A DNA stretch of 64,000 bases from a virus (taxonomy: Duplodnaviria; Caudoviricetes): positions 6,775 through 70,774 of IMG/VR virus record IMGVR_UViG_3300005298_000010; one strand, 5' to 3'. This document shows, piece by piece, positions 21,736 through 54,299 of the stretch. The position numbers and the translations under genes were made by a program. The notes under the pieces were generated by a model, which was given only the letters and a program-made list of their open reading frames with translations, was not told the origin of the DNA and did no database searches. Within the stretch, counting starts at the first letter, position 1. Each line of letters opens with the position of its first letter.

Positions 21736-23388
21736 ATGATTACTACTGGAAAGGAGATATTTATGGCTACTAAGATTCTAAACGTGCTGCCCCAGCTTTT
21801 TCATATCCGCAATGATACCCCTTTTGTTCCTTATCGGCCGTTCCAGGAGCTTTTTGTTGATTATCACAAGAACCCGTTTGTGATAATCAAAAGTGGACGG
21901 CAAGTCTCCAAAACGACCTCAGCCATTATCCATACCCTCTGTCATGCATTGCGTTACCCCCACTTCTATACCTTAATCATCACTCCCCTTGAGATCCAAG
22001 CCCGTCGTTTGACGACGGACTTTCTACTGCCAATCATCAAGGCTTCACCGATCTTTAAGGTCTGCCGTTATACCAATTCCGCCTTCAAAGTGCGTTTGTA
22101 TAATGGCTCAACCATTGAAGCCTCATACTCCTCAACCTCCAAAGAGGCAGAAGATACCAAACGCATTCGCGGTATCTCTGCCGATAAGTTACACTTAGAT
22201 GAAGTCCAAGACATTCCTTACAACGCTATTCCAGCAATCCGTGAGTGTCTCTCGGCCTCAAAATACCAATACCTCCTTTTTACTGGAACACCGAGGACAC
22301 TCAACAACACCCTTCAATACCTATGGGAACGTTCCACGGCAAACGAGTGGTGCATTCCCTGTAGGCATTGCGGGCATAATAATATTTGCTGTGTTGAAGA
22401 GGATCTGCTGAGAATTATCGGACCCTATCGTGATGACATTTGTGAAGAGCGGCCAGCCACATGCTGTAGCCGCTGTGGTGGGATCATTTATCCACAAGAG
22501 GGATTCTGGTTACCGAAACACCCCACAAATTCGTGGGTCGGTTACCACATCCCTCAGGTGATCATTCCTACCCATTATGCCAACCCCAAAAATTGGAAGG
22601 TTTTGCTGGATAAACAAAACCTCCAAGGCTATACGTTGGCCGACTTTTACCGAGAAGTTCTTGGCGAAGCTTATGACGTCGCCACAAGACTTGTGTCTGT
22701 GACGACGTTGCGTAAGGCTGCTACTTTGGGTCCGAGGGATAAAGACTTCAAGGAATTGTTACACAAATGGATACCTCGTTATAGGATGACAGCTTTAGGA
22801 ATAGACTGGGGCGGAGGCGGTGAAGAAGGCAATTATACCACCATCGCTCTCTGTGGCATCACCTACGATGGGATCATTGAGGTGCCTTGGGCTTATGAGT
22901 CCCCGACACCTCACGACCACATCGGTGAAGCCCGTCTAATCCTACACCTGTTGACCGAGCTGAAACCCAACCTCATTGCCCACGACTACTCGGGGGCAGG
23001 AGCACTCCGCGAAACGATCCTCATTCAAAGCGGAGTGCCTATTGATTGTATCTGTCCTGTTCGCTATGTGGGCAATCAAGGTGTGGCCCTGCGAATCGTG
23101 CCCGCCACACCTGACCACCCCCGTACGTTGATTCAAGTCGATAAGAACAAATGTCTGCTCTATGTGATCGGAGCATTAGCCCAGCAGAAATTGTACCTAT
23201 TTGATGACTTTGATGCTCCGAAATCACTAATCAAACAATTCCTATCGTTAATTGACGAAAAACACAGTTATCCTGAAAAGTACAGGATTATCCCGGAGCC
23301 AGGAGCACGGGATGAGTTTCCTCAAGCCGTGCTCCTGGGCTCCGTCGTCCTATGGCATATCGTTGGTTTCCCAACGTTTCTGCCGTAG
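21736..23388 (+). CDS. terL: Terminase large subunit (lambda GpA-like)
   Basis: KSGRQVSKTT Walker A, LHLDEVQD Walker B, TGTP coupling motif, CRHC...CSRC Zn ribbon, nuclease ALGIDWG. Confidence 0.88.
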   Translation: MITTGKEIFMATKILNVLPQLFHIRNDTPFVPYRPFQELFVDYHKNPFVIIKSGRQVSKTTSAIIHTLCHALRYPHFYTLIITPLEIQARRLTTDFLLPIIKASPIFKVCRYTNSAFKVRLYNGSTIEASYSSTSKEAEDTKRIRGISADKLHLDEVQDIPYNAIPAIRECLSASKYQYLLFTGTPRTLNNTLQYLWERSTANEWCIPCRHCGHNNICCVEEDLLRIIGPYRDDICEERPATCCSRCGGIIYPQEGFWLPKHPTNSWVGYHIPQVIIPTHYANPKNWKVLLDKQNLQGYTLADFYREVLGEAYDVATRLVSVTTLRKAATLGPRDKDFKELLHKWIPRYRMTALGIDWGGGGEEGNYTTIALCGITYDGIIEVPWAYESPTPHDHIGEARLILHLLTELKPNLIAHDYSGAGALRETILIQSGVPIDCICPVRYVGNQGVALRIVPATPDHPRTLIQVDKNKCLLYVIGALAQQKLYLFDDFDAPKSLIKQFLSLIDEKHSYPEKYRIIPEPGARDEFPQAVLLGSVVLWHIVGFPTFLP

Positions 23389-23399
23389 GAAGTTAGAAT

Positions 23400-23876
23400 C
23401 TATGTGTCTAGAAATTCCATGGACTTTCTTAACAACTCCTCCTGAAGCCGTTTTAAATCCTCCAGCACCGACAGGTCCAACATTGAAAACATCTTACACA
23501 TGTTGGACCTTGCTTCGGCATTTTGCGTCCCCCGGCAGAGCTCTTGAATCGCAGGCTTTAGAGCCCTCAAGAGGGACGCCAGTACAGAGATCTTGACTGT
23601 TAATGACGTGCTCGTCGTGTTGTCATAGACGGAGCACGTGTTCCCTATGACAACCGGAACAATCGTCCCATAGCCTGATAGAGCCAGGAGAACGTGTATC
23701 TCGTCCCCTCCATTGGGATCGATGATACACAGGTCCCCCGGCTCCAGCGACAGGTCCTGAAACACCAGGACCGTGTCGCTGAAAACTCGAATGATTTGGG
23801 ACGGCTCTGTCCGTCCTAGCTTTTGTAGGATGTCCTTAACTTCTTTATCGTGAAGATAATTTGTTATTATCTTCAT
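23400..23876 (-). CDS. Hypothetical protein
   Basis: 158 aa with AGGAGG RBS. Confidence 0.65.
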   Translation of the reverse strand: MKIITNYLHDKEVKDILQKLGRTEPSQIIRVFSDTVLVFQDLSLEPGDLCIIDPNGGDEIHVLLALSGYGTIVPVVIGNTCSVYDNTTSTSLTVKISVLASLLRALKPAIQELCRGTQNAEARSNMCKMFSMLDLSVLEDLKRLQEELLRKSMEFLDT

Positions 23877-24225
23877 TTTGAACCTCCTGATAAAGTCCGT
23901 GGTCTTCTACTACGTACCTTAACGCGAGCTTTTTATTCAAACTCGCCACAAACAACCTATTCGCCTTACACTTGAAGAGAAATTCTTCCCGGAAGTTACT
24001 ATTTCCCGGGAAGAAATGGACGCCTACGTATTCTCGCACACCATCGGTTGCAACCACGAGGCGTGCGGGACAATATGAGACTACCTCCACGGGCTCATAG
24101 TACGAGAGACGTCCAAGAATCTCTTCGTACTTAGCCTTGAACATCACTACAGTGAAAAGTTTCTTAACCAAATTACCTGCGCAATCCGTGCGCAGGTATC
24201 CTGGTTCAACAATAGGCAACTTCAT
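23845..24225 (-). CDS. Hypothetical protein
   Basis: 126 aa with AAGGAG RBS. Confidence 0.65.
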   Translation of the reverse strand: MKLPIVEPGYLRTDCAGNLVKKLFTVVMFKAKYEEILGRLSYYEPVEVVSYCPARLVVATDGVREYVGVHFFPGNSNFREEFLFKCKANRLFVASLNKKLALRYVVEDHGLYQEVQNEDNNKLSSR

Positions 24226-25469: not shown

Positions 25470-26534
25470 CTATGTCACCTGTTGGAGAAGCTGGAAGACT
25501 TCCGGAGGAAATAGACCCCGGTGCTTCGATCTCGCGGCGGTCTTGAGAAGGCACAGGATGTATTCCTGATACCTTCCCTCCTTGAGATAATCATTCAAAT
25601 AATCGACCGCCCGTTTCCAAATATCCTTTCCGACCTCCTCCGGGAGAGTCTCGATATAGCTGAAGACCTCGTTGAACAACACAAATACCAACGAGCCCTC
25701 TCTCCGGCGGTCGTTAAACGGGTACCTCAAGCCCTCGTTGAGGTACTCCTCGATGAATTCCTCCACTCGCGGCAATTCCATCGAGCGGAGGAACGACGAC
25801 AACTCAGCACTGAAGGCCTGTCCGCAGCAGGCCGTGCTGACGTACAGCAAGTCGGACAGGCTCTTCCGTCCCAGAGCCGCCATTGCTGCCCATCCGCGGA
25901 TGGTATAATCACATCCGCGAAGGGTCGCATATGCGAACTGCTCGTCCTGAGCAGGCTCCAAGAGCACGCTAGGACGGCTCTGGAGAAATATCCACATTAA
26001 ATTCCTTGCCCACCCAATATTTTCCTCCCAATTGGGCGGTAGCTTAATGAAGTTATTACTGAACGCACCCTCCGAGAGGTACTTCAAGTACCCCTGGATG
26101 TTTGGCGTCATCGGGACCCACGCCATTCTTGTCCTCAACATGCGGCTCATAGCATGGGTCCCCAAATCCTCCTGATTGCACGTTCCCACAATATACGTGC
26201 TGTTTGGGATCGCGAAGATCCCTCTTTCGCGATCCACCAATTGGCACAGGAGTGCCTGCACCTTGTCGGGAGGCACCCTGTTCACCTCATCCAGTAATAA
26301 CATCGTGTTTGGCTCTCTCAACCGGCTGATAAACTCCGGCTCGGCAAATTTCATCTTCCCCCCCTCGATATACGGATACCCGATAAAATCTACGGGTTCC
26401 ACCCCGAGGAGAGGCAATTTGATCAGCCGGAGATTTAAGAATTCCGCAAGCGCCCCAATGGTCGCAGTCTTGCCGATACCGTTGGGGCCTACAAGAACGA
26501 CCGGGATACCTGACTGTACTAACACCTCAAACAT
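25470..26534 (-). CDS. MoxR-like AAA+ ATPase
   Basis: GPNGIGKT, DFIGYP, LLLDEVNR, VGTCN, LRTRM. Confidence 0.88.
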   Translation of the reverse strand: MFEVLVQSGIPVVLVGPNGIGKTATIGALAEFLNLRLIKLPLLGVEPVDFIGYPYIEGGKMKFAEPEFISRLREPNTMLLLDEVNRVPPDKVQALLCQLVDRERGIFAIPNSTYIVGTCNQEDLGTHAMSRMLRTRMAWVPMTPNIQGYLKYLSEGAFSNNFIKLPPNWEENIGWARNLMWIFLQSRPSVLLEPAQDEQFAYATLRGCDYTIRGWAAMAALGRKSLSDLLYVSTACCGQAFSAELSSFLRSMELPRVEEFIEEYLNEGLRYPFNDRRREGSLVFVLFNEVFSYIETLPEEVGKDIWKRAVDYLNDYLKEGRYQEYILCLLKTAARSKHRGLFPPEVFQLLQQVT

Positions 26535-27585
26535 GTCTTTTCTCCTTTAATTGAATCACCTCTATGTCACATCGACAGTTTTTCAACTCCGTCGCGTAAA
26601 GAACTCTGCCATATGGGAGTCGTTGCACTTCGTGTGACGTTATTTTTACGAGACGGAGCTGAAAATCCCGTAAGTCCACACAGATTACCAATAACTCTTC
26701 TTCATCCGTGAGATCAAGCGGGGCCAACCGAGCCCGCCCGACACAGCCTACGGTCCTATAAAGGAACCGCAGTTCCTCAGCTTGCATTATGACCACGACG
26801 CAGTCATGAAGGAGCCGATTAAAGTCGGCATCGGGTATCTGCCCCCTTAAACATTCAGCTCCAAAGACATAAGGTAAGGGAAGGTTTAGCAGCGAGGGCA
26901 GAACCTTTATCGCAAAATACGGTACATACGGCTCTTCAGGACTCAAACGCGTTACTCCCGCGTACAAATAGACAAGTCCCAAAGAACCGCGGACCGTAAA
27001 TGGAACGATTGTCCCGGATACATGGAGATAGTAACAATCTCCATAATCGGGATAAAAAATAAACATCCTGTTTAGATGCTGGATATCCTCCATGACAATG
27101 GCTGCCCGCGTCCAGAACGGGACGAAATCTTTAAGTGTTGGAACTGGAGAATCCCAGTACCAATATTTGATTTGGCCTTCTTTGTCCCGTTCGACGACAC
27201 ATAATTCACAGTAGCGGTCCCATATCAGGTACGTTCGGGAACCCAGTACTACTGCTCTTGCTAAATGGAAGTTGGTTTCTTTTTTCGCGAGCTCCACTAA
27301 CGAACTTAGATATCCGTGATATTTATCCGCCTCCTGAGGAGGCGGTCTCATAAGTTCGAGCAAGACACGATCGAGTCGCTCGAACTTACCCTCCTGGTTC
27401 AGGATACCAGGTCGAAGTAGCCTAAGGTCGGTGACCCCTAGGCTGAATGCCAACCTCATATCCTTATCCGTAATGAGGATCTTCTCCGTCTTAGTAGGGT
27501 CATCCATGCGAATAAAATAGACGGCGGCTTCTGAACCGAACACCCAATAGCCGTCGATAACACTATACAGCCTCTCCATTCTCAT
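26527..27585 (-). CDS. Hypothetical beta-rich protein
   Basis: 352 aa, aromatic and beta-strand rich; weak resemblance to the 59-62.5 kb family. Confidence 0.65.
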   Translation of the reverse strand: MRMERLYSVIDGYWVFGSEAAVYFIRMDDPTKTEKILITDKDMRLAFSLGVTDLRLLRPGILNQEGKFERLDRVLLELMRPPPQEADKYHGYLSSLVELAKKETNFHLARAVVLGSRTYLIWDRYCELCVVERDKEGQIKYWYWDSPVPTLKDFVPFWTRAAIVMEDIQHLNRMFIFYPDYGDCYYLHVSGTIVPFTVRGSLGLVYLYAGVTRLSPEEPYVPYFAIKVLPSLLNLPLPYVFGAECLRGQIPDADFNRLLHDCVVVIMQAEELRFLYRTVGCVGRARLAPLDLTDEEELLVICVDLRDFQLRLVKITSHEVQRLPYGRVLYATELKNCRCDIEVIQLKEKRHV

Positions 27586-28630
27586 CCTGTACCTCCCTTA
27601 TTCCGAATTCGAAGACCCTTGCATATGCCTCGGCTGATCTGAACCAGACAAGCTCGTGTTTAGCAAGCTTATGGTACCGCTGTCGAGGTGGATCAAATAG
27701 ACTGTCCACCTCCTCACTAACTACCTGACGAAACGTTCTCCGAGTAATGTCGAGGAACACCAGCTGAATCCGCGTTGCGAAATCGGCAACGCTACGTCCG
27801 GCCATTACCGCCTGGAAACTACCCCAGGCGGAATAACCGCTATGGTTACGAATGTAGTAGTTATACGCATCCGTGACTTCCCCATGATGAATCAGCGTGA
27901 TGACAACTCGTGGGGATAGTGCCCTCATAGAAGCTCGGTAAGAAACTGCTTTGTTGGCCTGCATACAGTGACTTGTAAAAGGGATCCAATCTACGGTAAG
28001 TGAGCCTTCGCGAGCGTGGACGATAATCAAACCGATAAACTCCACACCCGAAAAAATGGGCATCACCTCGTAGTTTAACAACATCGGCTTTTCGACTCCC
28101 GCTGCAAATAGCCATTCACTGCGATCCCACAGATAGATCGCTGTGGGATTGTACCAGCACAGGTAAGGACCTTGCAGCGGAAAGTCGTAAGCAAATAAAT
28201 CCAGCCGCGGGCTTTGGTCATTAACGACATAGTCCTGGGGGATGAGATTCTCAAAGCAGTAGACCCGCCCGCTGAACGAATTTGCCAGCGTCAAGAGGTA
28301 AAAACAATGGTCTTTAGTGGTTCGGACACCGACAAAACCATCTGGTAGCTCCCACCAGATGGCTCCAGAAAGGAGAGAGCTATTGATGTCTTTGCTCCCC
28401 TTATCGATCCACACCTCTGGCGGTAAGGGACGGATGAGACATCCAATCGAATCCGTCCCTTTTTTACCAAAGGTGTTGCAATTGTACTGCAAGCTACCGT
28501 CATTCAAATCTAAACAATTGACGGTATATTCTCGAATGAACGGTTGCTGCCATACAAGTTTCCTGTTGACGAGACAGCAAAATTTAACTGTGGACATTTT
28601 TACCTTCATCTCCGTGTCCTCCTTTATCAA
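27563..28630 (-). CDS. Hypothetical beta-rich protein
   Basis: 355 aa; likely start MKVK after AAAGGAGG. Confidence 0.65.
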   Translation of the reverse strand: MIKEDTEMKVKMSTVKFCCLVNRKLVWQQPFIREYTVNCLDLNDGSLQYNCNTFGKKGTDSIGCLIRPLPPEVWIDKGSKDINSSLLSGAIWWELPDGFVGVRTTKDHCFYLLTLANSFSGRVYCFENLIPQDYVVNDQSPRLDLFAYDFPLQGPYLCWYNPTAIYLWDRSEWLFAAGVEKPMLLNYEVMPIFSGVEFIGLIIVHAREGSLTVDWIPFTSHCMQANKAVSYRASMRALSPRVVITLIHHGEVTDAYNYYIRNHSGYSAWGSFQAVMAGRSVADFATRIQLVFLDITRRTFRQVVSEEVDSLFDPPRQRYHKLAKHELVWFRSAEAYARVFEFGIREVQDENGEAV

Positions 28631-28697: not shown

Positions 28698-28726
28698 ATT
28701 AATGCGTGATCCACTACCCTTTTTCA
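28698..28726 (-). promoter_or_regulatory. Putative phage promoter TGAAA-N16-GCATTAA
   Basis: Minus strand TGAAAAAG-ggtagtggatcac-GCATTAAT, upstream of the leftward operon starting near 28630. Confidence 0.65.
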
Positions 28727-28729
28727 GGG

Positions 28730-29400
28730 CACAAAGCGGCTTCCCTTGGGATAACCGACAAGGATGTCCTTAGGAAATGCTTTTAGGAAAGGTAAGGATT
28801 TAAGAGCTACTATTAGCTCTAGCTATCTCAGATACCTATCACAGCATAAGGATAGGTATTAAGACAGCTATAACAAACATCACCAAGAAGGTTAACAACC
28901 TTCTGCCAAAAGGGGGGTATTGATCGGCTTTTTGGTGATGTTTGTAAGCATACCTAAGCTCCTTGTGATTATCCTGCGAAAATTAGGAGGTTGGTCTTAG
29001 GCTTGGTTTGGTTTTACGACCTTAGCGGATCTTATGACACGGGATTTTTAGGATGAAGAGTTATCCCAAATGGACCAGGACGTAGCCGCTTTGTGGTGGA
29101 TCAACTACCACCCCGTTGCCTGGAAAACCTATCTCAACCCGGAAAAGGAAGAGCTGAGATAGGAACCCCGATTTCGACCCACTAGAGGTCAACCTCCATC
29201 CAAGGGAACCGAGGGTTACGTCCTCCATGAGTAACTCCTCTAACCGGTTTACCTTAGCCTAAGCACGGTAAAGGAAACCGGAAAAGGACCGCTTCCCAAC
29301 CTCCACGGTGGATGGATTGAGTTATTTTAGGAAGCTAGTTATCTAAGGGTAAGAAAGGGTCGCATGGTCCCTCATGGGCTGAAGAACCATGCGACCCCAG
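28730..29400. other. ORF-free, hairpin-dense non-coding tract (structured RNA or origin candidate)
   Basis: No track ORF; at least six inverted repeats of 7-14 bp, e.g. 28873-28886/28932-28945. Confidence 0.6.
29350..29397 (-). terminator. Intrinsic terminator of 29424..30425
   Basis: 12-bp stem gggtcgcatggt/accatgcgaccc, then TTTCTT on the minus strand. Confidence 0.7.
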
Positions 29401-29423
29401 TATAACAGATAGGCAAAGGGATG

Positions 29424-30425
29424 TCAAGGGTTTTGGGGATTTTTAAGGATCCGGGCGAAAGTGTAGTAGGAGATATTGGTAGAAGGATCCTGGTAGTGGA
29501 ACCAGGCTAGGGTAGGAGTGGTAGAAATTTGGATGTCTTGAGGGGAAAGATGGAAAAGAGGATCATAAGTAAAGTTAACGGAAAAGGAATTAAGGGTGCC
29601 GCGGAGAGGGAGGGAAATTTGGTGATATCGCCCGGAAAGGTGAATAAAGGGATCGGGATCAGAGGAGGGAGTGAAGCGGGTGATTTCAAAGGGCCAAGGA
29701 TTAAGCTGCCCAAGGGGAGATTGGGCAGTAGGAGAGGGGGGATCAAGGAGGGTAGAACGGGGGAGAGGAAGACTGGGAGTGTAACTAAAGCAAGGGATAA
29801 GAAAATGATGATCCTGGTAGCGGATATAAAGGGAGCGGTGATAGCGGGTATGGTGAAAGGCAAGATGGACCGAAGAGGCCTTAGGATCTGAAGAGGCAAG
29901 AAGGGCAAGGGGGATAAAATGGTGCCAAGGGTGCCCAAAGGTGCGGCGAAGCAAGGATTCAGGAGGGGCTTGCCGCAGCGGAATGACAATCAGGCGACCC
30001 ATATAGTAGTTATCCTTGAGAAGAAGTAAGGCGTTTCCCCAGAGAGGATGGTCTTTGACGATAAGGTGAATAATGTCCCCGGGAGCCTGAATCAGATGAT
30101 CAAAATGCAGCCGAAGAAGCGAAGCTTTAAGTTGGAAGGCGTTGCTGGGAGGGTCAAAGGGGCGAGGGGAAAGGGAATGCAGACAGACTGCGGATAAGGA
30201 GCGACCAGATTGATAGTTCTGAAGGATCGCAAGCCCCTCATCGGAAGAAAAAACTAGAGGGGCCTTAAGATCGGAAAAAGAGATATCATCCTGAAGGGCA
30301 ATATCCATATAGGCCTCATGGGCATCAAAGGCCGTAAGCCGCCAGGTTTGACGCTTTTGGTAAAGATAAACATGCTGAGAAAGGGCCGAGGCCATCTGAA
30401 GGGCAGTCTGAAGGGGGATCCTCAT
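29424..30425 (-). CDS. Hypothetical protein, paralogue of 30757..31542; strongly pyrimidine-biased coding strand
   Basis: Start moved to ATG 30425 (MRIPLQ) after GGGAGG; shares LL..H...L...H..W..AL.L...LIV.PL...L.RR.F with the next gene. Confidence 0.7.
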   Translation of the reverse strand: MRIPLQTALQMASALSQHVYLYQKRQTWRLTAFDAHEAYMDIALQDDISFSDLKAPLVFSSDEGLAILQNYQSGRSLSAVCLHSLSPRPFDPPSNAFQLKASLLRLHFDHLIQAPGDIIHLIVKDHPLWGNALLLLKDNYYMGRLIVIPLRQAPPESLLRRTFGHPWHHFIPLALLASSDPKASSVHLAFHHTRYHRSLYIRYQDHHFLIPCFSYTPSLPLPRSTLLDPPSPTAQSPLGQLNPWPFEITRFTPSSDPDPFIHLSGRYHQISLPLRGTLNSFSVNFTYDPLFHLSPQDIQISTTPTLAWFHYQDPSTNISYYTFARILKNPQNP

Positions 30426-30451
30426 GGTAAAACCTCCCATAGCTAAAGGTT

Positions 30452-30480
30452 TGAAAGGTCCGGCGAATTCCTGCATTAAT
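30452..30480 (+). promoter_or_regulatory. Plus-strand copy of TGAAA-N16-GCATTAA
   Basis: TGAAAGGT-ccggcgaattcct-GCATTAAT. Confidence 0.5.
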
Positions 30481-30756
30481 TTATGATAAAGGAGTGTTGG
30501 TCATGGAGGAAGGGTAAAAGAGTTTCTTTTGCTTTTTAGCAAAGGAGAAGGAAAAGGAGAAGGAAATGGTGGTTATATTACTGCTTCTCGTGGTCCTCGC
30601 AAGTTGAGGACCAATAAAAAAAACATGGTTGCGACCCTATCTGGTCGCAACCAGCTAAAAAAATGGGAGCGTTATGCTTTGGAGTCGGGGCCAGCTAGGC
30701 CCCGACTCCAAATTCTCTTGAAGCACAGTCCTGCTGCCTTCTTTAGCTATGTCGCC

Positions 30757-31542
30757 TTAATGTGCGGGAAAGACCGCATAATAGTGAATCCCTGCCTCAT
30801 AGTGATGGTACCAGAGATTCTCTGCTTTTATGGCGACTTCTGGCTTTTCTGCAAATGGCCAAAGGTCAGTTTCAGAAGGGAGGGTGAGTTTAAATTTTGG
30901 TGGATGTAAAATCCTTTTGGGAGGGATCCGCTTTGGTTTACCCCTCAACACAAAATACGAATCGGCATGCTTAATATAAAGCTCATCGCCATTGACCGTA
31001 AAGCCCAAATCCGTGGGTCCGTCAGGAAGCTCTGACCTTAAAAGCGTCAGAGCAATATAGGGCGCAATATGGGATGTGAACACCCTCCGCTTCAGATATG
31101 AAAACCCCTCCAGAAACTGTAGCGGAAGGACGATAAGGATTGTGTGCTTGGAGCCCTCACCAATAAGCACGAGGGCATCCTTCCAGACTTTGTGTCTGAT
31201 CGTTATAATGTGGGTCACTTCCGCACTACAGTTGGCAAGAAGTTCCAGGTGTGCCTTAAGGAGAGGCACTTGGAACTGATAAAGCTCAGGGGGCTGAAAA
31301 ACAGCCGATTCGTGGTTTGAGGGGCTTATCGAGAAACTGCCGGACCCAAGCAAAGGAAAAAGCTCAGGTGCAAACTCGGGATAGGGCTCAGATCCAAAAT
31401 GCTTAGGATCAATCGGCATATCGAATTGGACATGCCGATCCCGGATCCCTCTAACTCTGGTAAGTCCCTTCTCGTCACGATATATATGAAGGGTGCAATT
31501 CATCCAAAAGCCTAGGGTGCCGATGATCGAATTCATAGGCAT
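30757..31542 (-). CDS. Hypothetical protein, paralogue of 29424..30425
   Basis: 261 aa with AAGGAGG RBS; visual alignment as above. Confidence 0.7.
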   Translation of the reverse strand: MPMNSIIGTLGFWMNCTLHIYRDEKGLTRVRGIRDRHVQFDMPIDPKHFGSEPYPEFAPELFPLLGSGSFSISPSNHESAVFQPPELYQFQVPLLKAHLELLANCSAEVTHIITIRHKVWKDALVLIGEGSKHTILIVLPLQFLEGFSYLKRRVFTSHIAPYIALTLLRSELPDGPTDLGFTVNGDELYIKHADSYFVLRGKPKRIPPKRILHPPKFKLTLPSETDLWPFAEKPEVAIKAENLWYHHYEAGIHYYAVFPAH

Positions 31543-32010: not shown

Positions 32011-32178
32011 TCACTTTTTAATGCAAAAATTTCGATAAATTTTCACGGTTTGTAGGGGGGCTTTTTAGCATTAAAAACCTTCATTTTCACATAGCTAAAA
32101 GAAGCGACCTGGTTCCCAGGACCCCTTCCTTTCAAGTTCTTTGGAATCCTTAGGGTGAAAGCTTTACTCTTCCTCTGA
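32011..32178 (-). repeat. Cassette copy A (gene tail + hairpin + promoter)
   Basis: 32011-32050 and 32109-32178 closely match 32795-32835 and 32863-32933. Confidence 0.85.
32017..32045 (-). promoter_or_regulatory. Putative phage promoter TGAAAATT-N13-GCATTAAA
   Basis: Minus strand TGAAAATT-tatcgaaattttt-GCATTAAA, upstream of 31918. Confidence 0.7.
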
Positions 32179-32794: not shown

Positions 32795-32933
32795 TCACTT
32801 TTTAATGCAAAAATCCTAATAAATTTTCACGGTTTTTAAGGGGTCCTGAAAGAGCCAGCAATCTGGTTTCCAGGACCCCTTCCTTTCACGTTTTTTGGAA
32901 TCCTTCGGATGGCTGCTTTTACTCTTCTTCTGA
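32795..32933 (-). repeat. Cassette copy B
   Basis: See copy A; includes the 10-bp stem aggggtcctg (32839-32848)/caggacccct (32871-32880). Confidence 0.85.
32801..32829 (-). promoter_or_regulatory. Putative phage promoter TGAAAATT-N13-GCATTAAA
   Basis: Minus strand TGAAAATT-tattaggattttt-GCATTAAA, upstream of 32694. Confidence 0.7.
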
Positions 32934-33738: not shown

Positions 33739-33767
33739 TTTAATGCTGGGGTTTCTGAGAATTTTCA
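33739..33767 (-). promoter_or_regulatory. Putative phage promoter TGAAAATT-N13-GCATTAAA
   Basis: Minus strand TGAAAATT-ctcagaaacccca-GCATTAAA, upstream of the YqaJ-like gene. Confidence 0.7.
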
Positions 33768-43797: not shown

Positions 43798-44901
43798 ATG
43801 CTGCTCCTGGGTGCTGTAGGTCAGGACTTTAAGATTGTCGGACGCAACGGAAATAGGATAGAACCGGTTTTTGTCTCTTCGATGATTGATGATCTTATTG
43901 ATTTCGTTGACAATCTTTCTGGAGAAAAGTTATACCTGGTTGTTAATGAAAAATCTGCAATTTTCTTGGAAATTTTGTACGGATCTCATTCGAAAGGTAA
44001 GGTGCAGATCTTCCCTGTTTCCTCTTGGACTCTCGATCGATTGGTTGCTGATGAGGTCAAAAAAGAAAATCTAGATTCGTATAACGTTATCGATAAGGTT
44101 CGTTTAGGTTATGAAATTTGTGAGAAGGGTTTCCCTCGCAGCATAGGTGGTCCGAGACCTTTCCGACTCGAAGATAATCTTTATGGACAATATTGGTGGT
44201 CGCGTGTATTGGGTTTAGCTACAGATTCCTTTTACGAGCTAACGAAATTCCATGTTGGATTTTTGCCTTTTGAGCCTTTTGTTGCAAGTCGACGTTCGCT
44301 CGGCAGTCTGATTGCCAGTATTGGTGATGTGCGTTGGTACATGTACAAATGCGGGAATTTGTTTAAACGGTTTAAACGTATTTTCGACTGGAATTCCGAG
44401 AAGTTTTTGGATGCGATTTTTGATCCTCTAAATGGTTTCCATACGATCTATTGGAACGCACAGCATGCCTGGTATAACGCTTCCATAGCAGCCCAGTGTT
44501 TTTCGAACTATCGTAGATTTGGAGTTGATTTTATTCGTGATGCCGATGATGTAGGATTTCGTCTTGGAGATGCTTTTTATCGTATCTATTATCAGGAACA
44601 AATCAAACATCCCGAGCATATCGCCCTTTATCGAACGACGACTGCCTTTGTGAAATTTGTCCTTGGTGTGCTCCATTGGGCCTTTGAAAACTCCGAAAGA
44701 GATAACTACCGTAACGACGTAAGCTTTGAATTTCTGGACGTTCTATTGCCGACGGAAGAGGAAAGAGAGGAGTACATAAAGTATCTTAAACTTTTAACAC
44801 CGGATAGAGAGGAATTTGAAGATGCGGTGGTTCCGTGCGGGCAGATTTCTGAGGACAAGGTACAGTCAATGTCCGTCGTCTTTATTATCCCGACTCGTTA
44901 A
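43798..44901 (+). CDS. IS110-transposase/Nop-like protein, apparently domesticated
   Basis: VVNEKSAIF...KKENLDSYNVIDKVRLG parallels IS110 mE.Tg...KtD..DA..ia; LIASIGDVRWY parallels laeiGD..rF; YYQEQ...HIALYR...FVKFV parallels the C-terminal helix. Recognised by eye only. Confidence 0.5.
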   Translation: MLLLGAVGQDFKIVGRNGNRIEPVFVSSMIDDLIDFVDNLSGEKLYLVVNEKSAIFLEILYGSHSKGKVQIFPVSSWTLDRLVADEVKKENLDSYNVIDKVRLGYEICEKGFPRSIGGPRPFRLEDNLYGQYWWSRVLGLATDSFYELTKFHVGFLPFEPFVASRRSLGSLIASIGDVRWYMYKCGNLFKRFKRIFDWNSEKFLDAIFDPLNGFHTIYWNAQHAWYNASIAAQCFSNYRRFGVDFIRDADDVGFRLGDAFYRIYYQEQIKHPEHIALYRTTTAFVKFVLGVLHWAFENSERDNYRNDVSFEFLDVLLPTEEEREEYIKYLKLLTPDREEFEDAVVPCGQISEDKVQSMSVVFIIPTR

Positions 44902-46237
44902 AAAATTTCAAACAACTATTCGAGAACGTAACTATATCACTGAGGAAACTGTTACATACGAAGAGAAATATATCCGTATCGATCCTCAAAGGGATGTCAT
45001 TGATATTTACGTTGGTCTAACGCATCGTTTAACTCAAATCTGTGAAAAGTTAGACATCCCTTGCGACATCTTCCTAAACTTCCCGCCTCTTCATGTCGAT
45101 CGTTCTGTTCTTGAGAATGGTAACTTTCGTTCTTTCCAAGTCGAGTTCCTAAACAGCATCATTAATGCTGTAATTAACGGAACTGGTGGAATTTACGTCG
45201 CTCCTCCTGCCTTTGGGAAGACGATTCTTATAGGAACAATTGTCAAGCTTTTTCCAAAGGCCAAGATTGATATTGTCTCCAGCAGAAGGGACGTCATTAA
45301 AAAGGCTTATGATTATCTTTCGGAATCTGGGATTTCTGCTGGTTTAGTGACTACAGGTTCTCGTCATTACGATCGTGTTACGCTTTATACAGTTAAAAGC
45401 CTAAGACACAGCTCATTCGATGCGGATTTGGTTATTCTGGATGAGGCCCATGAGCTGGTAACAGATCAAAATTTTCAGCTGCTTTTAAATTACAGAGACG
45501 CTCGATTTATTGCACTTACGGCAACTCCAGATACCCGCTATGATAACAAACACGAGCGGTTGAAGGCCCTTGTGGGACCTGTTTTGTTCCAGATATCGTA
45601 CAAAAGAACATTGCAGGCAGGTTTAAACGTTCCAGTGGTGGTAAGGTGGTATGCTGCTACAGAAGGATATGTACCTGAGGATTGTAAAATCAGTGAGATT
45701 AAGAAATTTGGTTTGTGGAGGAACGAGCGTTTTAATCGACTGGTGGCACAAGTGGCTCGGAAATATTTGGATGAAGGAAAGCAAGTCCTAATTCTCGTCG
45801 ATACAGCAGAACATGCTGAGAACTTATCTAAGCAGCAACTGCTATCGGATTTTGAAGTTATTATTGCCTCTCGCAGCAAAAATGCCAGCTTAGATCCTTG
45901 TACAAGGAAGGAAAGGGAGCGTGTAAGGAAGGCATTTGAAAGACGGGAAATTATGGGAGTTATTGCTACGAAGATTTGGTCGACAGGTGTCAGTTTTAAT
46001 GATCTTGAGGTTCTTGTTCGGGCCGATTGTACGGCCTCACATACTGAGAGTATTCAGATTCCTGGACGAGTCTCTCGGGTACCAGAGTTGACGGATAAAG
46101 AATACGGAATTGTGGTGGATTTTGCTCCTGTCTTTAATGCTTGGTTAGAGCGTAGTGCCAGGAAGCGAATGAAGTATTACAAGGAATATGGTTGGTCTCA
46201 GATTCTGCCTGATGGAAGGATTATTAAGCCTGAGTGA
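44816..46237 (+). CDS. Superfamily 2 DNA helicase (UvsW-like)
   Basis: APPAFGKT, ILDEAH, LTAT, WSTGVS, QIPGRVSR. Confidence 0.9.
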   Translation: MKMRWFRAGRFLRTRYSQCPSSLLSRLVKKFQTTIRERNYITEETVTYEEKYIRIDPQRDVIDIYVGLTHRLTQICEKLDIPCDIFLNFPPLHVDRSVLENGNFRSFQVEFLNSIINAVINGTGGIYVAPPAFGKTILIGTIVKLFPKAKIDIVSSRRDVIKKAYDYLSESGISAGLVTTGSRHYDRVTLYTVKSLRHSSFDADLVILDEAHELVTDQNFQLLLNYRDARFIALTATPDTRYDNKHERLKALVGPVLFQISYKRTLQAGLNVPVVVRWYAATEGYVPEDCKISEIKKFGLWRNERFNRLVAQVARKYLDEGKQVLILVDTAEHAENLSKQQLLSDFEVIIASRSKNASLDPCTRKERERVRKAFERREIMGVIATKIWSTGVSFNDLEVLVRADCTASHTESIQIPGRVSRVPELTDKEYGIVVDFAPVFNAWLERSARKRMKYYKEYGWSQILPDGRIIKPE

Positions 46238-53184: not shown

Positions 53185-54299
53185 CCTTTGTCCTTAGGGC
53201 GTTAGTTATGTCTAGCGATATTGGTGCTTCTGTTGCAAGGAAAGTCAAAATTCCTTTTTTGATGAGGATTTTGCTGAATTTGGAAGCCTTACCTTTGGGT
53301 AGAGTTATTCAGATTATGGGTCCGCAGGCTTCCCTAAAAAGTACATTCGCTGCCGAGATCGTCAGGTGGCATCTTTGTGAGGGTGGGAGGGCGGCTTTTT
53401 TTGAAACAGAAGGTAAGCCTGCGGCGTTTGTTTATATGTGTTTGATCGAGACTTTTGGTAAGGAGGTTGTTAGGATTTGTCGAGTTAAGAGGATGGAAAA
53501 ATGGATGCAGGAGATTTCTAAACAGATTCGAAAAGGAGAGGAGCTTTTGGAACAAGGGGTGAATCTGCCGCCTATGGTTTTTGTGGTCGATAGTGTGCTG
53601 GGCTGTAACAGCATGCAGACCATCTCGGATGTAGATGAGCGAGGATACCCCAGTGAAAGATTCGCCTCAGAATCGAGACGCATTACGGATTTTCTACGTT
53701 CATATTCCAGCCGGATTGCGGATCTTCCATTAACCCTAATTATGGTTAACCATGTCAAGCTCCGCCCGACTGGATTTACGATTCAAAAGGCGACTGTTGG
53801 TGGGGTAGATCTTCGTTATCGTGCGACCTTTGAACTGGAATTGAAGAGGGAAAAGTCGACCAGCTATCTAGGTGGTCCGTGTGAAAATTTACTGACCATT
53901 AGCGTAGAAAAGAATTCTTTCGGACCGGATGTTACGTCTATTTCCGTACCGGTCATTTTCGACAATAGGGATCGTAAGATTTATTTCGATTGGTACTCGC
54001 CGCTTACGCGTTGGCTATGTGATCTTCGAACCGATTATGTTAAGCCAAAGCCCGCACCTTCTGTGTTAGAACAAATCCGAGGGCTTTTTGGGATATCGGT
54101 TCGCTCTGGCGGTCCGAAAGGTAAGCTTTATTACTGCGAATCTATCGGGATTGAGAAGGAGAATGCCTTACCGGCCCATGAATTTGGTAAGTTTTTGGAG
54201 GAGAATTGTCAGGATAAATTGGCCGTTCTTTCGGAGATTATTGGGATTCGGACTGTGGATGATATCGTTAGTGAAGAGTCTATTGATTTCGAGCATTAA
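53181..54299 (+). CDS. recA: RecA/UvsX-like recombinase
   Basis: GRVIQIMGPQASLKST, AAFFETEG, FVVDSV, IMVNHV, GGVDLRYRAT, VEKNSFGP follow the RecA motif order. Confidence 0.88.
   Translation: MTFVLRALVMSSDIGASVARKVKIPFLMRILLNLEALPLGRVIQIMGPQASLKSTFAAEIVRWHLCEGGRAAFFETEGKPAAFVYMCLIETFGKEVVRICRVKRMEKWMQEISKQIRKGEELLEQGVNLPPMVFVVDSVLGCNSMQTISDVDERGYPSERFASESRRITDFLRSYSSRIADLPLTLIMVNHVKLRPTGFTIQKATVGGVDLRYRATFELELKREKSTSYLGGPCENLLTISVEKNSFGPDVTSISVPVIFDNRDRKIYFDWYSPLTRWLCDLRTDYVKPKPAPSVLEQIRGLFGISVRSGGPKGKLYYCESIGIEKENALPAHEFGKFLEENCQDKLAVLSEIIGIRTVDDIVSEESIDFEH

What the first reader, a model, noticed from the sequence alone, without database searches (positions are those of the whole stretch)
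28730..29400. ~650 bp ORF-free tract packed with nested inverted repeats: candidate large ncRNA or origin
Seen stems: agagcta/tagctct (28803-28820); atacctatc/gataggtat (28832-28859); 14 bp acaaacatcaccaa/ttggtgatgtttgt (28873-28945) enclosing agaaggtt/aaccttct; cctatctca/tgagatagg (29128-29163); gagggttac/gtaactcctc (29211-29240); ccggttt/aaaccgg enclosing tttacc/ggtaaa (29244-29282). It is the largest ORF-free gap I found in an otherwise tightly packed window. Known: phages carry large structured RNAs (GOLLD, ROOL classes). Inference: a multi-branch ncRNA, possibly the partner of the IS110/Nop-like protein, or a replication origin.
Basis: partly seen in the sequence, partly recalled or inferred. 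Interest (0 to 1): 0.72.

Follow-up and report, generated by a model that had tools for sequence, protein, structure and literature searches.

The report
New pseudoknotted phage RNA family
The ORF-free tract most likely encodes a roughly 600-base, heavily folded non-coding RNA whose core recurs in at least 16 other lineages of phage-type DNA from many habitats and matches no catalogued RNA family, so it looks like a new class of large phage RNA of unknown function.

Summary
Window 28710-29423 is the only stretch over 181 nt with no ORF of 60 aa or more. It holds the most structured 300-nt segment of the window.

It is not a lone oddity. A 46-nt core, CCAGGCAACGGG, a hairpin, then CUACGUCCUGGU, plus a distal GGGAA-helix strand, recurs in 17 distinct lineages counting the window (GC 33-63%): hot-spring phages, 13 IMG/VR lineages (16 loci) and one MAG contig. 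Four helix sets (P3, P4, P5, Pa) change in a compensatory way. Own-partner pairing beat all 20,000 partner permutations for each of the three tested (P4, P5, Pa). P4 and P5 cross Pa, which gives an H-type pseudoknot.

The window copy, about 29330-28731 on the minus strand, is an expanded hot-spring form of about 600 nt. Compact forms are 250-300 nt. Its core is about 97% identical to a phage whose proteins are only 39-44% identical.

No member matches any Rfam 15 family. Neighbouring genes vary, so it is neither an IS110 partner nor a fixed gene leader. Nothing typical of a replication origin was found.

Best reading: a stand-alone structured RNA gene of a new family. Transcription, the coding strand and the function are inferred, not shown.

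The parts
29399..29427 (-). sigma-70-type promoter-like site: TTGACA, 17 nt, TATACT, with an extended TG. It overlaps the stop codon of the upstream ORF.
   Evidence: 11 of 12 matches. The same TTGACATCCC...TATAAC arrangement lies directly upstream of the homologous RNA in L032/L033. Activity is inferred.
29357..29397 (-). 18-bp hairpin followed by UUUCUU. It is either the terminator of ORF 29424..30476 or a 5' hairpin of the RNA. It is specific to the window phage.
   Evidence: (I2). It is absent from L031 and L032.
29128..29330 (-). 5' domain of the RNA. It contains the hairpins at 29282-29244 and 29240-29211, the motif GUCGAAA (29178-29172), the Pa 5' strands (29172-29164 and upstream) and the P2 hairpin (29163-29128).
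   Evidence: Alignment A2; RNAalifold and pair counts (helices 1-7, 23 pairs with compensatory changes); coordinates.
29074..29123 (-). Family-wide core: CCAGG-CAACGGG, the P3 hairpin (29112-29095, loop UAGUUGAU), the P4 5' strand (29094-29085), then UACGU-CCUGG-U.
   Evidence: Invariant in 17 lineages. P3 and P4 covary. The 37-mer 29094-29130 is a shared node of at least four different contigs in hot-spring assemblies.
29020..29069 (-). P5 5' strand (29069-29060), Pa 3' strands (29046-29038 and 29030-29020) and the conserved GUCAUAAG (29038-29031).
   Evidence: (I8). AUAAG recurs in 8 of 17 lineages.
28756..29019 (-). Expansion domain found only in the hot-spring clade. Conserved blocks are CGUAAAACCAAA (29018-29007), AAUCACAAG (28970-28962) and CAAUACCCCCCUUUUGGCAG (28922-28903).
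   Evidence: This domain is 302-329 nt in the hot-spring clade and 80-239 nt elsewhere.
28731..28755 (-). P5 3' strand (28755-28746), the conserved GGGAA (28745-28741) and the P4 3' strand (28740-28731). This is the 3' edge of the conserved RNA.
   Evidence: (I3, I8).
28699..28726 (-). Bipartite motif TGAAA-N16-GCATTAA. It is a candidate phage-specific promoter of the next gene and lies outside the conserved RNA.
   Evidence: 6 matches (5 exact, 1 with one mismatch) against 0.56 expected. L031 has TAAAA-N16-GCATTAA at the same relative place.
27563..28624 (-). Downstream gene: RBS AAGGAGG at 28624-28618, ATG at 28609, 348 aa, an orphan protein.
   Evidence: only itself found among 5.8 billion proteins; Pfam gave nothing.

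Best explanation
The tract is a gene for a large non-coding RNA of a previously uncatalogued family carried by diverse phages. The RNA is read on the minus strand. In this phage it probably starts at the sigma-70-type promoter at 29427-29399, and its conserved body runs from about 29330 to 28731.

The fold is a long irregular helix (Pa) that encloses a nearly invariant core: CCAGG-CAACGGG, the P3 hairpin, the P4 strand, then UACGU-CCUGG. Two further helices (P5 and P4) pair strands inside that enclosure with strands downstream of it. This makes an H-type pseudoknot whose junction carries the invariant purine-rich stretches (CAACGGG, GGGAA, AUAAG, GUCGAAA). Hot-spring phages have added about 200-250 nt of peripheral arms to a 250-300 nt compact form.

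What is shown: the conservation, the covariation and the pseudoknot topology. What is inferred: that the molecule acts as a folded RNA and not as DNA, that the minus strand is the active one, and that it works as a stand-alone, trans-acting RNA whose conserved junction is a binding or catalytic pocket for a partner common to many hosts. This is the same functional picture as the orphan phage RNAs ROOL and GOLLD.

My odds: about 75% that it is a conserved structured RNA family, the confidence given below. That splits roughly into 45% trans-acting RNA (an RNP, an RNA-only assembly or a ribozyme) and 20% cis-acting leader (processive antitermination or riboswitch-like). A further 12% goes to an origin or primer transcript (listed below as a separate rival), and the rest is other.
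For: Homologues and conservation:
- L031 keeps the RNA with 74% mean column identity, and its roughly 70-nt core differs at 2-3 bases (about 97% identical). Its AAA ATPase and DUF2201 proteins are only 44% and 39% identical to the window's.
- L032/L033 carry the RNA in a rearranged gene context.
- The pattern GGCAACGGG-N18-30-CTACGTCCTGG recovers 16 IMG/VR loci. A stricter pattern recovers one MAG contig.
- Features the pattern did not require are conserved across the 17 lineages: CCA before the core in 17 of 17, U after it in 16 of 17, the P3 loop UANUNGAU in 15 of 17, and GGGAA or a near variant before the P4 3' strand in all.

Covariation:
- One P4 position reads A-U, C-G, U-A and G-C in different lineages.
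- The P4 body switches between GCGGC/GCCGC, GGGGC/GCCCC and ACCCC/GGGGU.
- P3 reads GUGG/CCAC, UAGG/CCUA, CGGA/UCCG, CCGC/GCGG and others.
- Partner-swap permutation tests give own against permuted duplex energies of -9.2 vs -4.3 (P4), -10.9 vs -5.7 (P5) and -22.8 vs -17.1 kcal/mol (Pa). In each case 0 of 20,000 permutations did as well.
- In the hot-spring clade, 76 pairs are 95.7% paired against 84.2% when shuffled and at most 48.7% when slid. 28 pairs show compensatory changes against 13.5 shuffled and 2-9 slid.

Structure signal in the window: z -14.5, and the top-ranked segment of the window.

Not coding: there is no ORF of 60 aa or more, and the 55-aa ORF is not conserved.

Strand:
- The sense strand runs the same way as at least one neighbouring gene in 16 of 17 lineages, and as both neighbours in 11-12.
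- GNRA tetraloop hairpins number 7 on the sense strand and 2 on the antisense.
- Promoter-like sites scoring 10 of 12 or better occur upstream on the sense strand in 5 lineages and on the antisense side in 2.
- The conserved unpaired stretches are purine-rich on this strand.

Stand-alone: neighbouring genes differ from lineage to lineage. They include an SF2 helicase, HNH, DnaB, DNA polymerase, integrase, methyltransferase, radical SAM and orphans. In L037 the next long ORF is convergent. In the window the next gene has its own promoter-like motif.
Against: There is no transcript evidence; no RNA run was available.

The strand is not proven. G-U against A-C counts and sense against antisense energies do not discriminate. 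Two lineages have an A-C mismatch inside P4 that would be G-U on the other strand.

No clear intrinsic terminator follows the RNA, so its 3' end is undefined and read-through into the next gene is possible.

In the compact GC-rich clade the RNA sits inside an operon with no room for a promoter, and the HNH start codon lies 8-20 nt after P4. That arrangement would fit a cis role.

The hot-spring covariation rests on only three independent lineages, and part of that structure was derived from the same alignment.

The CCAGG/CCUGG helix never varies, so it cannot be tested.

No covariance model or R-scape test was run.
Confidence: 0.75

Rival explanations
1. It is a cis-acting leader. The RNA is made as the first part of, or an internal part of, an operon transcript. 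It controls downstream genes in one of two ways. It could modify the transcribing RNA polymerase, as the HK022 put RNA does in processive antitermination. Or it could act as a ligand- or factor-sensing fold that hides the ribosome-binding site.
For: In 14 of 17 lineages a gene in the same orientation starts within about 130 nt of the RNA's 3' end. In the window, L032, L042, L040 and L052 a sigma-70-like promoter precedes the RNA, so it would lead the transcript. In the L043-type clade the purine-rich GGGAA-GGGGU of P4 lies 8-20 nt before the HNH start codon and could serve as its Shine-Dalgarno sequence. A universally conserved partner such as RNA polymerase would explain invariant junction bases across hosts with 33-63% GC.
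Against: The downstream genes have no common function. In L037 the next long ORF is convergent. In the window the next gene has its own promoter-like motif and its own RBS 100 nt further on. No terminator or anti-terminator alternative is conserved. At 250-680 nt with a pseudoknot, it is far larger than known put or EAR elements or riboswitch aptamers (the size comparison is from my own knowledge).
Confidence: 0.2
2. It is a replication-origin element. It would be either a structured primer transcript, by analogy with ColE1 RNA II, or a single-strand initiation signal folded in DNA. It would mark where phage DNA synthesis starts.
For: In relatives the element often lies in the replication module. 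An SF2 helicase is within 5 kb in 7 loci, and DnaB, DNA polymerase and a D5-like protein occur in others. Cumulative GC skew in the window is lowest at about 28-29 kb. The strand tests based on G-U pairs are inconclusive, so folding in DNA is not excluded.
Against: There are no iterons or direct-repeat arrays and no AT-rich unwinding tract; GC is 0.40-0.51. The skew step comes from one abnormally purine-rich ORF at 29.4-30.5 kb, whereas the gene-orientation switch is at about 33.8-34.1 kb. In the window the element lies 15 kb from the helicase operon. Pseudoknotted helices around invariant unpaired purines, and GNRA loops on one strand, are hallmarks of RNA tertiary folds.
Confidence: 0.12
3. 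It is a ribozyme of a mobile or processing type: a degenerate group-I-like intron, a capping or cleaving ribozyme linked to homing-endonuclease genes, or a new self-cleaver that cuts the operon transcript.
For: The strand order is Pa 5', an enclosed domain, P5 5', Pa 3', an insert, then P5 3'. This resembles the P3-[P4-P6]-P7-P3'-P8-P7' pseudoknot order of group I introns, and a conserved AUAAG recalls J8/7 of the Tetrahymena intron (both comparisons from my own knowledge). In four lineages an HNH endonuclease gene starts directly after the RNA. The junction nucleotides are invariant.
Against: No Rfam ribozyme or intron model matches at E up to 10 in the five region-limited searches, including a compact member (E up to 5 for L036-L038). 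The element is not inside a gene: the flanking ORFs end with a stop and start with an RBS, so there are no exons to join. Most lineages have no endonuclease gene nearby.
Confidence: 0.1
4. It is chance structure or non-functional spacer DNA.
For: None beyond the lack of expression data.
Against: The evidence against is the conservation across 17 lineages, the compensatory changes and the permutation tests.
Confidence: 0.02

Closest known systems
ROOL and GOLLD RNAs (Rfam families; cryo-EM in bioRxiv 10.1101/2024.12.08.627333)
   Same: They are large (about 580 and over 800 nt), multi-pseudoknotted, phage- or prophage-borne RNAs of unknown function with no fixed protein partner. GOLLD also has a universally conserved part and a variable part.
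   Different: There is no sequence or structure match to either Rfam model at E up to 10. No tRNA genes lie nearby, whereas ROOL and GOLLD often sit near tRNA islands. The core motif is different. Oligomer or cage formation is untested.
OLE RNA
   Same: It is about 600 nt, ornate, found in extremophiles, and has highly conserved unpaired stretches (abstracts listed).
   Different: OLE is a chromosomal gene of Bacillota with partner proteins OapA-C. There is no Rfam match here, and the context here is phage.
Group I introns
   Same: They have an interleaved long-range pseudoknot, a large variable peripheral insert, frequent occurrence in phages, and an occasional adjacent HNH gene (my own knowledge).
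   Different: The element is not inserted in a gene, there is no match to the Rfam intron model, and no exon continuity exists.
IS110 bridge RNA
   Same: It is a structured non-coding RNA encoded by a mobile element.
   Different: Bridge RNAs are about 150-250 nt and lie directly beside their recombinase (my own knowledge). Here the proposed IS110-like ORF is 15 kb away with no Pfam support, and it is absent from the other loci that carry the RNA.
HK022 put / EAR processive antitermination RNAs
   Same: They are promoter-proximal, structured and phage- or operon-borne, and they would act on a universally conserved partner.
   Different: Those RNAs are 70-120 nt (my own knowledge). No similarity was tested or seen, and the context is not always promoter-proximal.

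Membership tests
ROOL (Rfam) | Match to the family covariance model | tested here: not met
   No hit at gathering score in the window or in 12 loci. No hit at E up to 10 in five region-limited searches.
ROOL / GOLLD | Frequent location next to tRNA islands in phages or prophages | tested here: not met
   ARAGORN finds no tRNA or tmRNA gene in the 64-kb window.
GOLLD (Rfam) | Match to the family covariance model | tested here: not met
   The same searches as for ROOL.
Group I intron | Match to the Rfam intron model and a conserved catalytic core | tested here: not met
   No hit at E up to 10.
Group I intron | Insertion within a gene whose exons join into one reading frame or one RNA | tested here: not met
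   The upstream ORF ends with a stop at 29424 and has a complete shorter paralogue. The downstream ORF has its own RBS and ATG. In the L043-type loci the RNA lies between a complete helicase gene and an HNH gene.
IS110 bridge RNA | Encoded immediately beside an IS110-family (DEDD/RuvC-like plus Tnp) recombinase | tested here: not met
   ORF 43798..44901 is 15 kb away and has no Pfam match at E 0.01 or better. No shared recombinase neighbour appears among the 17 lineages.
Replication origin | Iterons or initiator boxes plus an AT-rich unwinding element | tested here: not met
   The repeat finder gives only short two- or three-copy direct repeats. GC is 0.40-0.51 across the tract.
Replication origin | Strand-composition switch centred on the element | tested here: inconclusive
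   The cumulative skew minimum is at 28-29 kb, but it is produced by a local anomaly at 29.4-30.5 kb. The record is only about 41% complete.
Riboswitch / cis-regulatory leader | Consistent position upstream of one functional class of genes, with an expression platform | tested here: not met
   The downstream genes are unrelated to each other. No conserved terminator or alternative pairing was seen.
New family proposed here | Core CCAGGCAACGGG, P3 hairpin, P4 strand, UACGUCCUGGU, and a distal GGGAA-P4' strand closed by P5 | tested here: met
   The window has all of these elements at 29123-29074, 29069-29060 and 28755-28731.

The most novel reading that the evidence does not exclude
This is a new class of large, pseudoknotted phage RNA with a catalytic or self-assembling core: a new ribozyme, or an RNA-only particle like ROOL and GOLLD. 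It is spread across phages of many bacterial phyla. The roughly 600-nt form from a hot spring sampled at about 77 C would be naturally thermostable and well suited to structure determination.
Probability: 0.25. Interest if true: 0.92.

Novelty: new variant of a known kind. Interest (0 to 1): 0.8.

Why it matters
Only a handful of large, highly structured bacterial and phage RNA classes are known, among them the ribosomal RNAs, RNase P, group I and II introns, OLE, ROOL, GOLLD, raiA and HEARO. Each has turned out to be a ribozyme, an RNP scaffold or an unprecedented RNA assembly.

The family found here combines several unusual properties:
- It has 12-nt and 11-nt invariant stretches.
- At least four helix sets covary.
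- Its topology is interleaved into a pseudoknot.
- It occurs in phage DNA ranging from 33% to 63% GC.
- It has no entry in Rfam 15, and the text search found no paper quoting its motifs.

That level of constraint implies a partner or a chemistry common to very different hosts. The family gives RNA biologists a concrete new target. It has a compact version of 250-300 nt and a thermophilic version of about 600 nt. It also gives phage biologists a new early-region gene to test.

Tried and rejected
- Expression: no RNA holder was listed for this stretch. The three DNA runs laid are contigs only, so expression could not be examined.
- Flanking proteins as handles: the two genes next to the RNA have no relatives in IMG/VR or in the 5.8-billion protein set. 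The AAA ATPase gave the useful relatives instead.
- Terminase relatives at about 30% identity (25 loci, 385 kb) contain no copy by nhmmer or by pattern.
- blastn against 50,697 cultured phage records, using the window RNA and two compact members as queries, gave no match.
- The exact 24-mer and a first gapped pattern found nothing in IMG/VR. Only relaxing the P4 bases worked.
- 400 further genomes of the phylum of the MAG that carries L038 had no match among those searched.
- False positives: L041 and a relaxed-pattern hit in L034 lack the flanking features.
- Strand tests that did not discriminate: whole-RNA sense against antisense MFE (8 of 17), helix energies and G-U against A-C counts.
- MAFFT misaligned the 3' strands of the compact members. 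I therefore built no covariance model and used anchored helices and partner-swap permutations instead.
- Hammerhead, HDV-like, hairpin-ribozyme, RNase P P4 and T-loop resemblances were checked by eye and dropped. The required core motifs or strand order are missing, and Rfam gives no hit.
- Literature: a full-text search for the 12-mer and 11-mer motifs found no paper that quotes them. Two phage or ncRNA discovery papers that I read do not describe this element.

Full report
**Setting.** The window is part of a 70.8-kb IMG/VR virus record that CheckV estimates to be about 41% complete. Near-identical contigs occur in four hot-spring assemblies, one labelled GBSSSed77C. The phage encodes a gpA-type large terminase, an AAA_5 ATPase and a DUF2201-like protein close to the tract.

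**The observation.**
- The tract lies between two minus-strand genes. The upstream ORF is 29424..30476. It is a real gene, or at least it has a paralogue at 30757..31542 with 30% identity and E 9e-12.
- The downstream gene really starts at ATG 28609 behind AAGGAGG.
- 28710-29423 is the only stretch longer than 181 nt in the whole window with no ORF of 60 aa or more on either strand.
- The minus strand folds at -302 kcal/mol, z -14.5. The plus strand gives z -7.6.
- Measured against the window itself (1276 segments of 300 nt), 28701-29000(-) is the most over-structured segment, z -4.0.
- Rfam 15 gives nothing at gathering score and only noise at E up to 10. There are no tRNA or tmRNA genes.

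**Finding relatives.**
- The flanking proteins are orphans.
- Laying Logan contigs on the region showed that a 37-mer, 29094-29130, is a shared graph node with depth about 35. It joins at least four different contigs in the same hot-spring samples. One of them is a 430-nt contig that matches two separate parts of the tract with a 120-nt insert in place of 138 nt. This pointed to a conserved core.
- An exact 24-mer from that core found one JGI contig, L031. It is a syntenic but divergent phage. Its AAA ATPase is 44% and its DUF2201-like protein 39% identical to the window's. Its intergenic tract nevertheless aligns over about 600 nt at 74% column identity, and the roughly 70-nt core differs at 2-3 bases, about 97% identity.
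- Relatives of the ATPase led to L032/L033. There the same RNA lies in a different gene neighbourhood and in the opposite orientation to the ATPase gene.
- Patterns built from the invariant bases then found two IMG/VR contigs and one MAG contig. After I freed the bases of one helix, a relaxed pattern found 17 IMG/VR loci, one of them a false positive.
- Together this makes 17 distinct lineages whose surrounding DNA ranges from 33% to 63% GC.

**Anatomy of the family.** Read on the sense strand, which is the window's minus strand, every member has the following order:
1. 5' strands of a long irregular helix (Pa), around a GUCGAAA-like stretch.
2. An optional hairpin (P2).
3. CCAGG-CAACGGG.
4. 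Hairpin P3 with 5-6 bp and loop UANUNGAU.
5. The 5' strand of P4.
6. UACGU-CCUGG-U.
7. The 5' strand of P5.
8. The 3' strands of Pa, around a conserved (C)AUAAG in about half the lineages.
9. A variable domain of 80-329 nt.
10. The 3' strand of P5.
11. (A)AGGGAA.
12. The 3' strand of P4.

Because the P4 and P5 5' strands lie inside Pa and their 3' strands lie outside it, the fold is an H-type pseudoknot with long stems. In the window the elements sit at 29178-29128 (Pa 5' and P2), 29123-29074 (core), 29069-29060 and 28755-28746 (P5), 29046-29020 (Pa 3' and AUAAG), and 28745-28731 (GGGAA and P4 3').

- 29128-29163 is P2.
- 29211-29240 and 29244-29282 are 5'-domain hairpins, and both covary. For example, CCGGUUU/AAACCGG in the window becomes CCGGCUU/AAGCUGG in L031 and CCGGAUU/AAUCCGG in L032.
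- 28803-28945 are lineage-specific arms of the expansion domain.

**Evidence that the helices are real.**
- P3 changes as GUGG/CCAC, UAGG/CCUA, CAGG/CCUG, CGGA/UCCG, CUGG/CCAG, CCGC/GCGG and CGGC/GCCG.
- P4 changes as GCGGC/GCCGC, ACGGC/GCCGU, GGGGC/GCCCC, CGGGC/GCCCG and ACCCC/GGGGU. The next position is A-U, C-G, U-A or G-C in different lineages.
- In partner-swap tests, the mean duplex energy of each lineage's own strands was -9.2 (P4), -10.9 (P5) and -22.8 (Pa) kcal/mol. Randomly re-paired lineages gave -4.3, -5.7 and -17.1. None of 20,000 permutations reached the observed value.
- On the hot-spring alignment, a 76-pair pseudoknotted structure is 95.7% paired, against 84.2% shuffled and at most 48.7% slid. 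It has 28 pairs with changes on both sides, against 13.5 shuffled and 2-9 slid.
- Caveats: that clade has only three independent lineages. Part of the structure came from RNAalifold on the same alignment. Relatedness inflates such shuffles.
- The CCAGG/CCUGG pairing never varies and so remains untested.

**RNA or DNA, and which strand.**
- Direct tests based on G-U pairs were inconclusive.
- The sense strand is favoured by local transcription direction. It runs the same way as at least one neighbour in 16 of 17 lineages and as both neighbours in 11-12.
- It is also favoured by GNRA-capped hairpins, 7 against 2, and by promoter-like sites scoring 10 of 12 or better, found upstream in 5 lineages against 2 on the other side.
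- The motif TTGACATCCC...TATA is shared by the window (29427-29399) and by L032/L033.
- The conserved unpaired stretches are purine-rich on this strand.
- In the window the fold z-score is much stronger on this strand.
- None of this replaces a transcript map.

**What it is not.**
- It is not coding.
- It is not a member of any Rfam 15 family. Eight searches covered the window and 15 loci, including a compact member searched alone at E up to 10.
- It is not an IS110 bridge RNA. The proposed partner is 15 kb away, has no Pfam support, and is absent elsewhere.
- It is not a classical origin. There are no iterons and no AT-rich tract, and the skew step is a local anomaly.
- It is not a leader of one gene family. 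The neighbours include an SF2 helicase (7 loci), an HNH endonuclease directly downstream (the L043-type clade), DnaB, DNA polymerase, integrase, DNA methyltransferase, radical SAM and many orphans.

**Most likely mechanism.** I read it as a stand-alone structured RNA gene. In this phage it would be expressed from a host-type promoter, and therefore early. Its conserved pseudoknotted junction would be the working part, and its peripheral arms are free to expand, most of all in the hot-spring clade.

The invariance of about 30 junction nucleotides across phages of very different hosts argues for one of three things: a partner common to all hosts (ribosome, RNA polymerase, an RNA-processing enzyme or a small molecule), self-assembly, or catalysis. 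That is how ROOL and GOLLD are currently understood. The resemblance is functional, not a claim of membership.

A cis-acting role (antitermination or control of the adjacent gene) is the main rival. It is most plausible in the compact clade, where the P4 3' strand could double as the HNH ribosome-binding site. An origin-linked primer transcript and a mobile or processing ribozyme are lesser rivals.

**Novelty.** No Rfam family matches. A full-text search found no paper quoting the motifs. No cultured phage record matched by blastn. The family may sit unnamed among bulk predictions of phage structured RNAs, but I found no description of it. I rate it a new family within the known kind 'large ornate phage RNAs of unknown function'.

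Noticed in passing
window 28699-28726, 30452-30479, 32018-32045, 32802-32829, 33740-33767, 54272-54299: The bipartite motif TGAAA-N16-GCATTAA occurs 5 times exactly and once with one mismatch, against 0.56 expected. Most copies lie upstream of genes, so it is a candidate phage-specific promoter. L031 has TAAAA-N16-GCATTAA at the equivalent place after its RNA.
   Followed up: partly
window 29424-30476 (minus ORF): The plus strand here is extremely purine-rich (GC skew up to 0.65, AT skew up to 0.39). The 350-aa product is therefore rich in Pro, Leu, Ser and His. It is nevertheless a paralogue of ORF 30757..31542 (30% identity, E 9e-12). This stretch alone creates the apparent GC-skew minimum near 29 kb.
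   Followed up: partly
L031 1654-6967: The related phage carries five tandem ORFs of about 350 aa downstream of the RNA, and at least three of them are mutual paralogues. The window has two ORFs of this size in that position (26527..27585 and 27563..28609). None has a Pfam or PHROG match. This looks like a fast-evolving, expanding gene family next to the RNA.
   Followed up: partly
window 29094-29130: In Logan assemblies of two hot-spring runs the phage contig breaks exactly here. The reason is that this 37-mer is shared, at depth about 35, by at least four different contigs. So several distinct carriers of the RNA core coexist in one community. A G>A variant is seen at 29093.
   Followed up: partly
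window 28430-28466 (plus strand): A terminator-like hairpin, GGGACGGAT...ATCCGTCCC followed by TTTTTT, lies on the plus strand inside the minus-strand gene 27563..28609. What it is for is unknown.
   Followed up: no
window 30501-30800 and 23101-23900: These are the other segments that are most over-structured relative to the window background (z -3.8 to -2.7, on both strands). They may hold terminators or further RNA elements.
   Followed up: no
The overlapping next ORF (44816..46237) is an SF2 helicase (ResIII and Helicase_C). This is the same kind of helicase that flanks the RNA in seven other phage loci.
   Followed up: partly
L043, L045, L048, L049 (compact GC-rich clade): A 133-147 aa HNH endonuclease gene starts 8-40 nt after the RNA's last helix. 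The purine-rich GGGAA-GGGGU of that helix lies where its Shine-Dalgarno sequence should be. A PDDEXK nuclease and a SprT-like ORF follow.
   Followed up: partly
L038 / G001 contig C220: The only genome-collection hit is a 6-kb contig of an Acidobacteria MAG (UBA6911). None of 400 other genomes of that phylum searched has the motif, so the contig is probably phage DNA binned with the MAG.
   Followed up: partly
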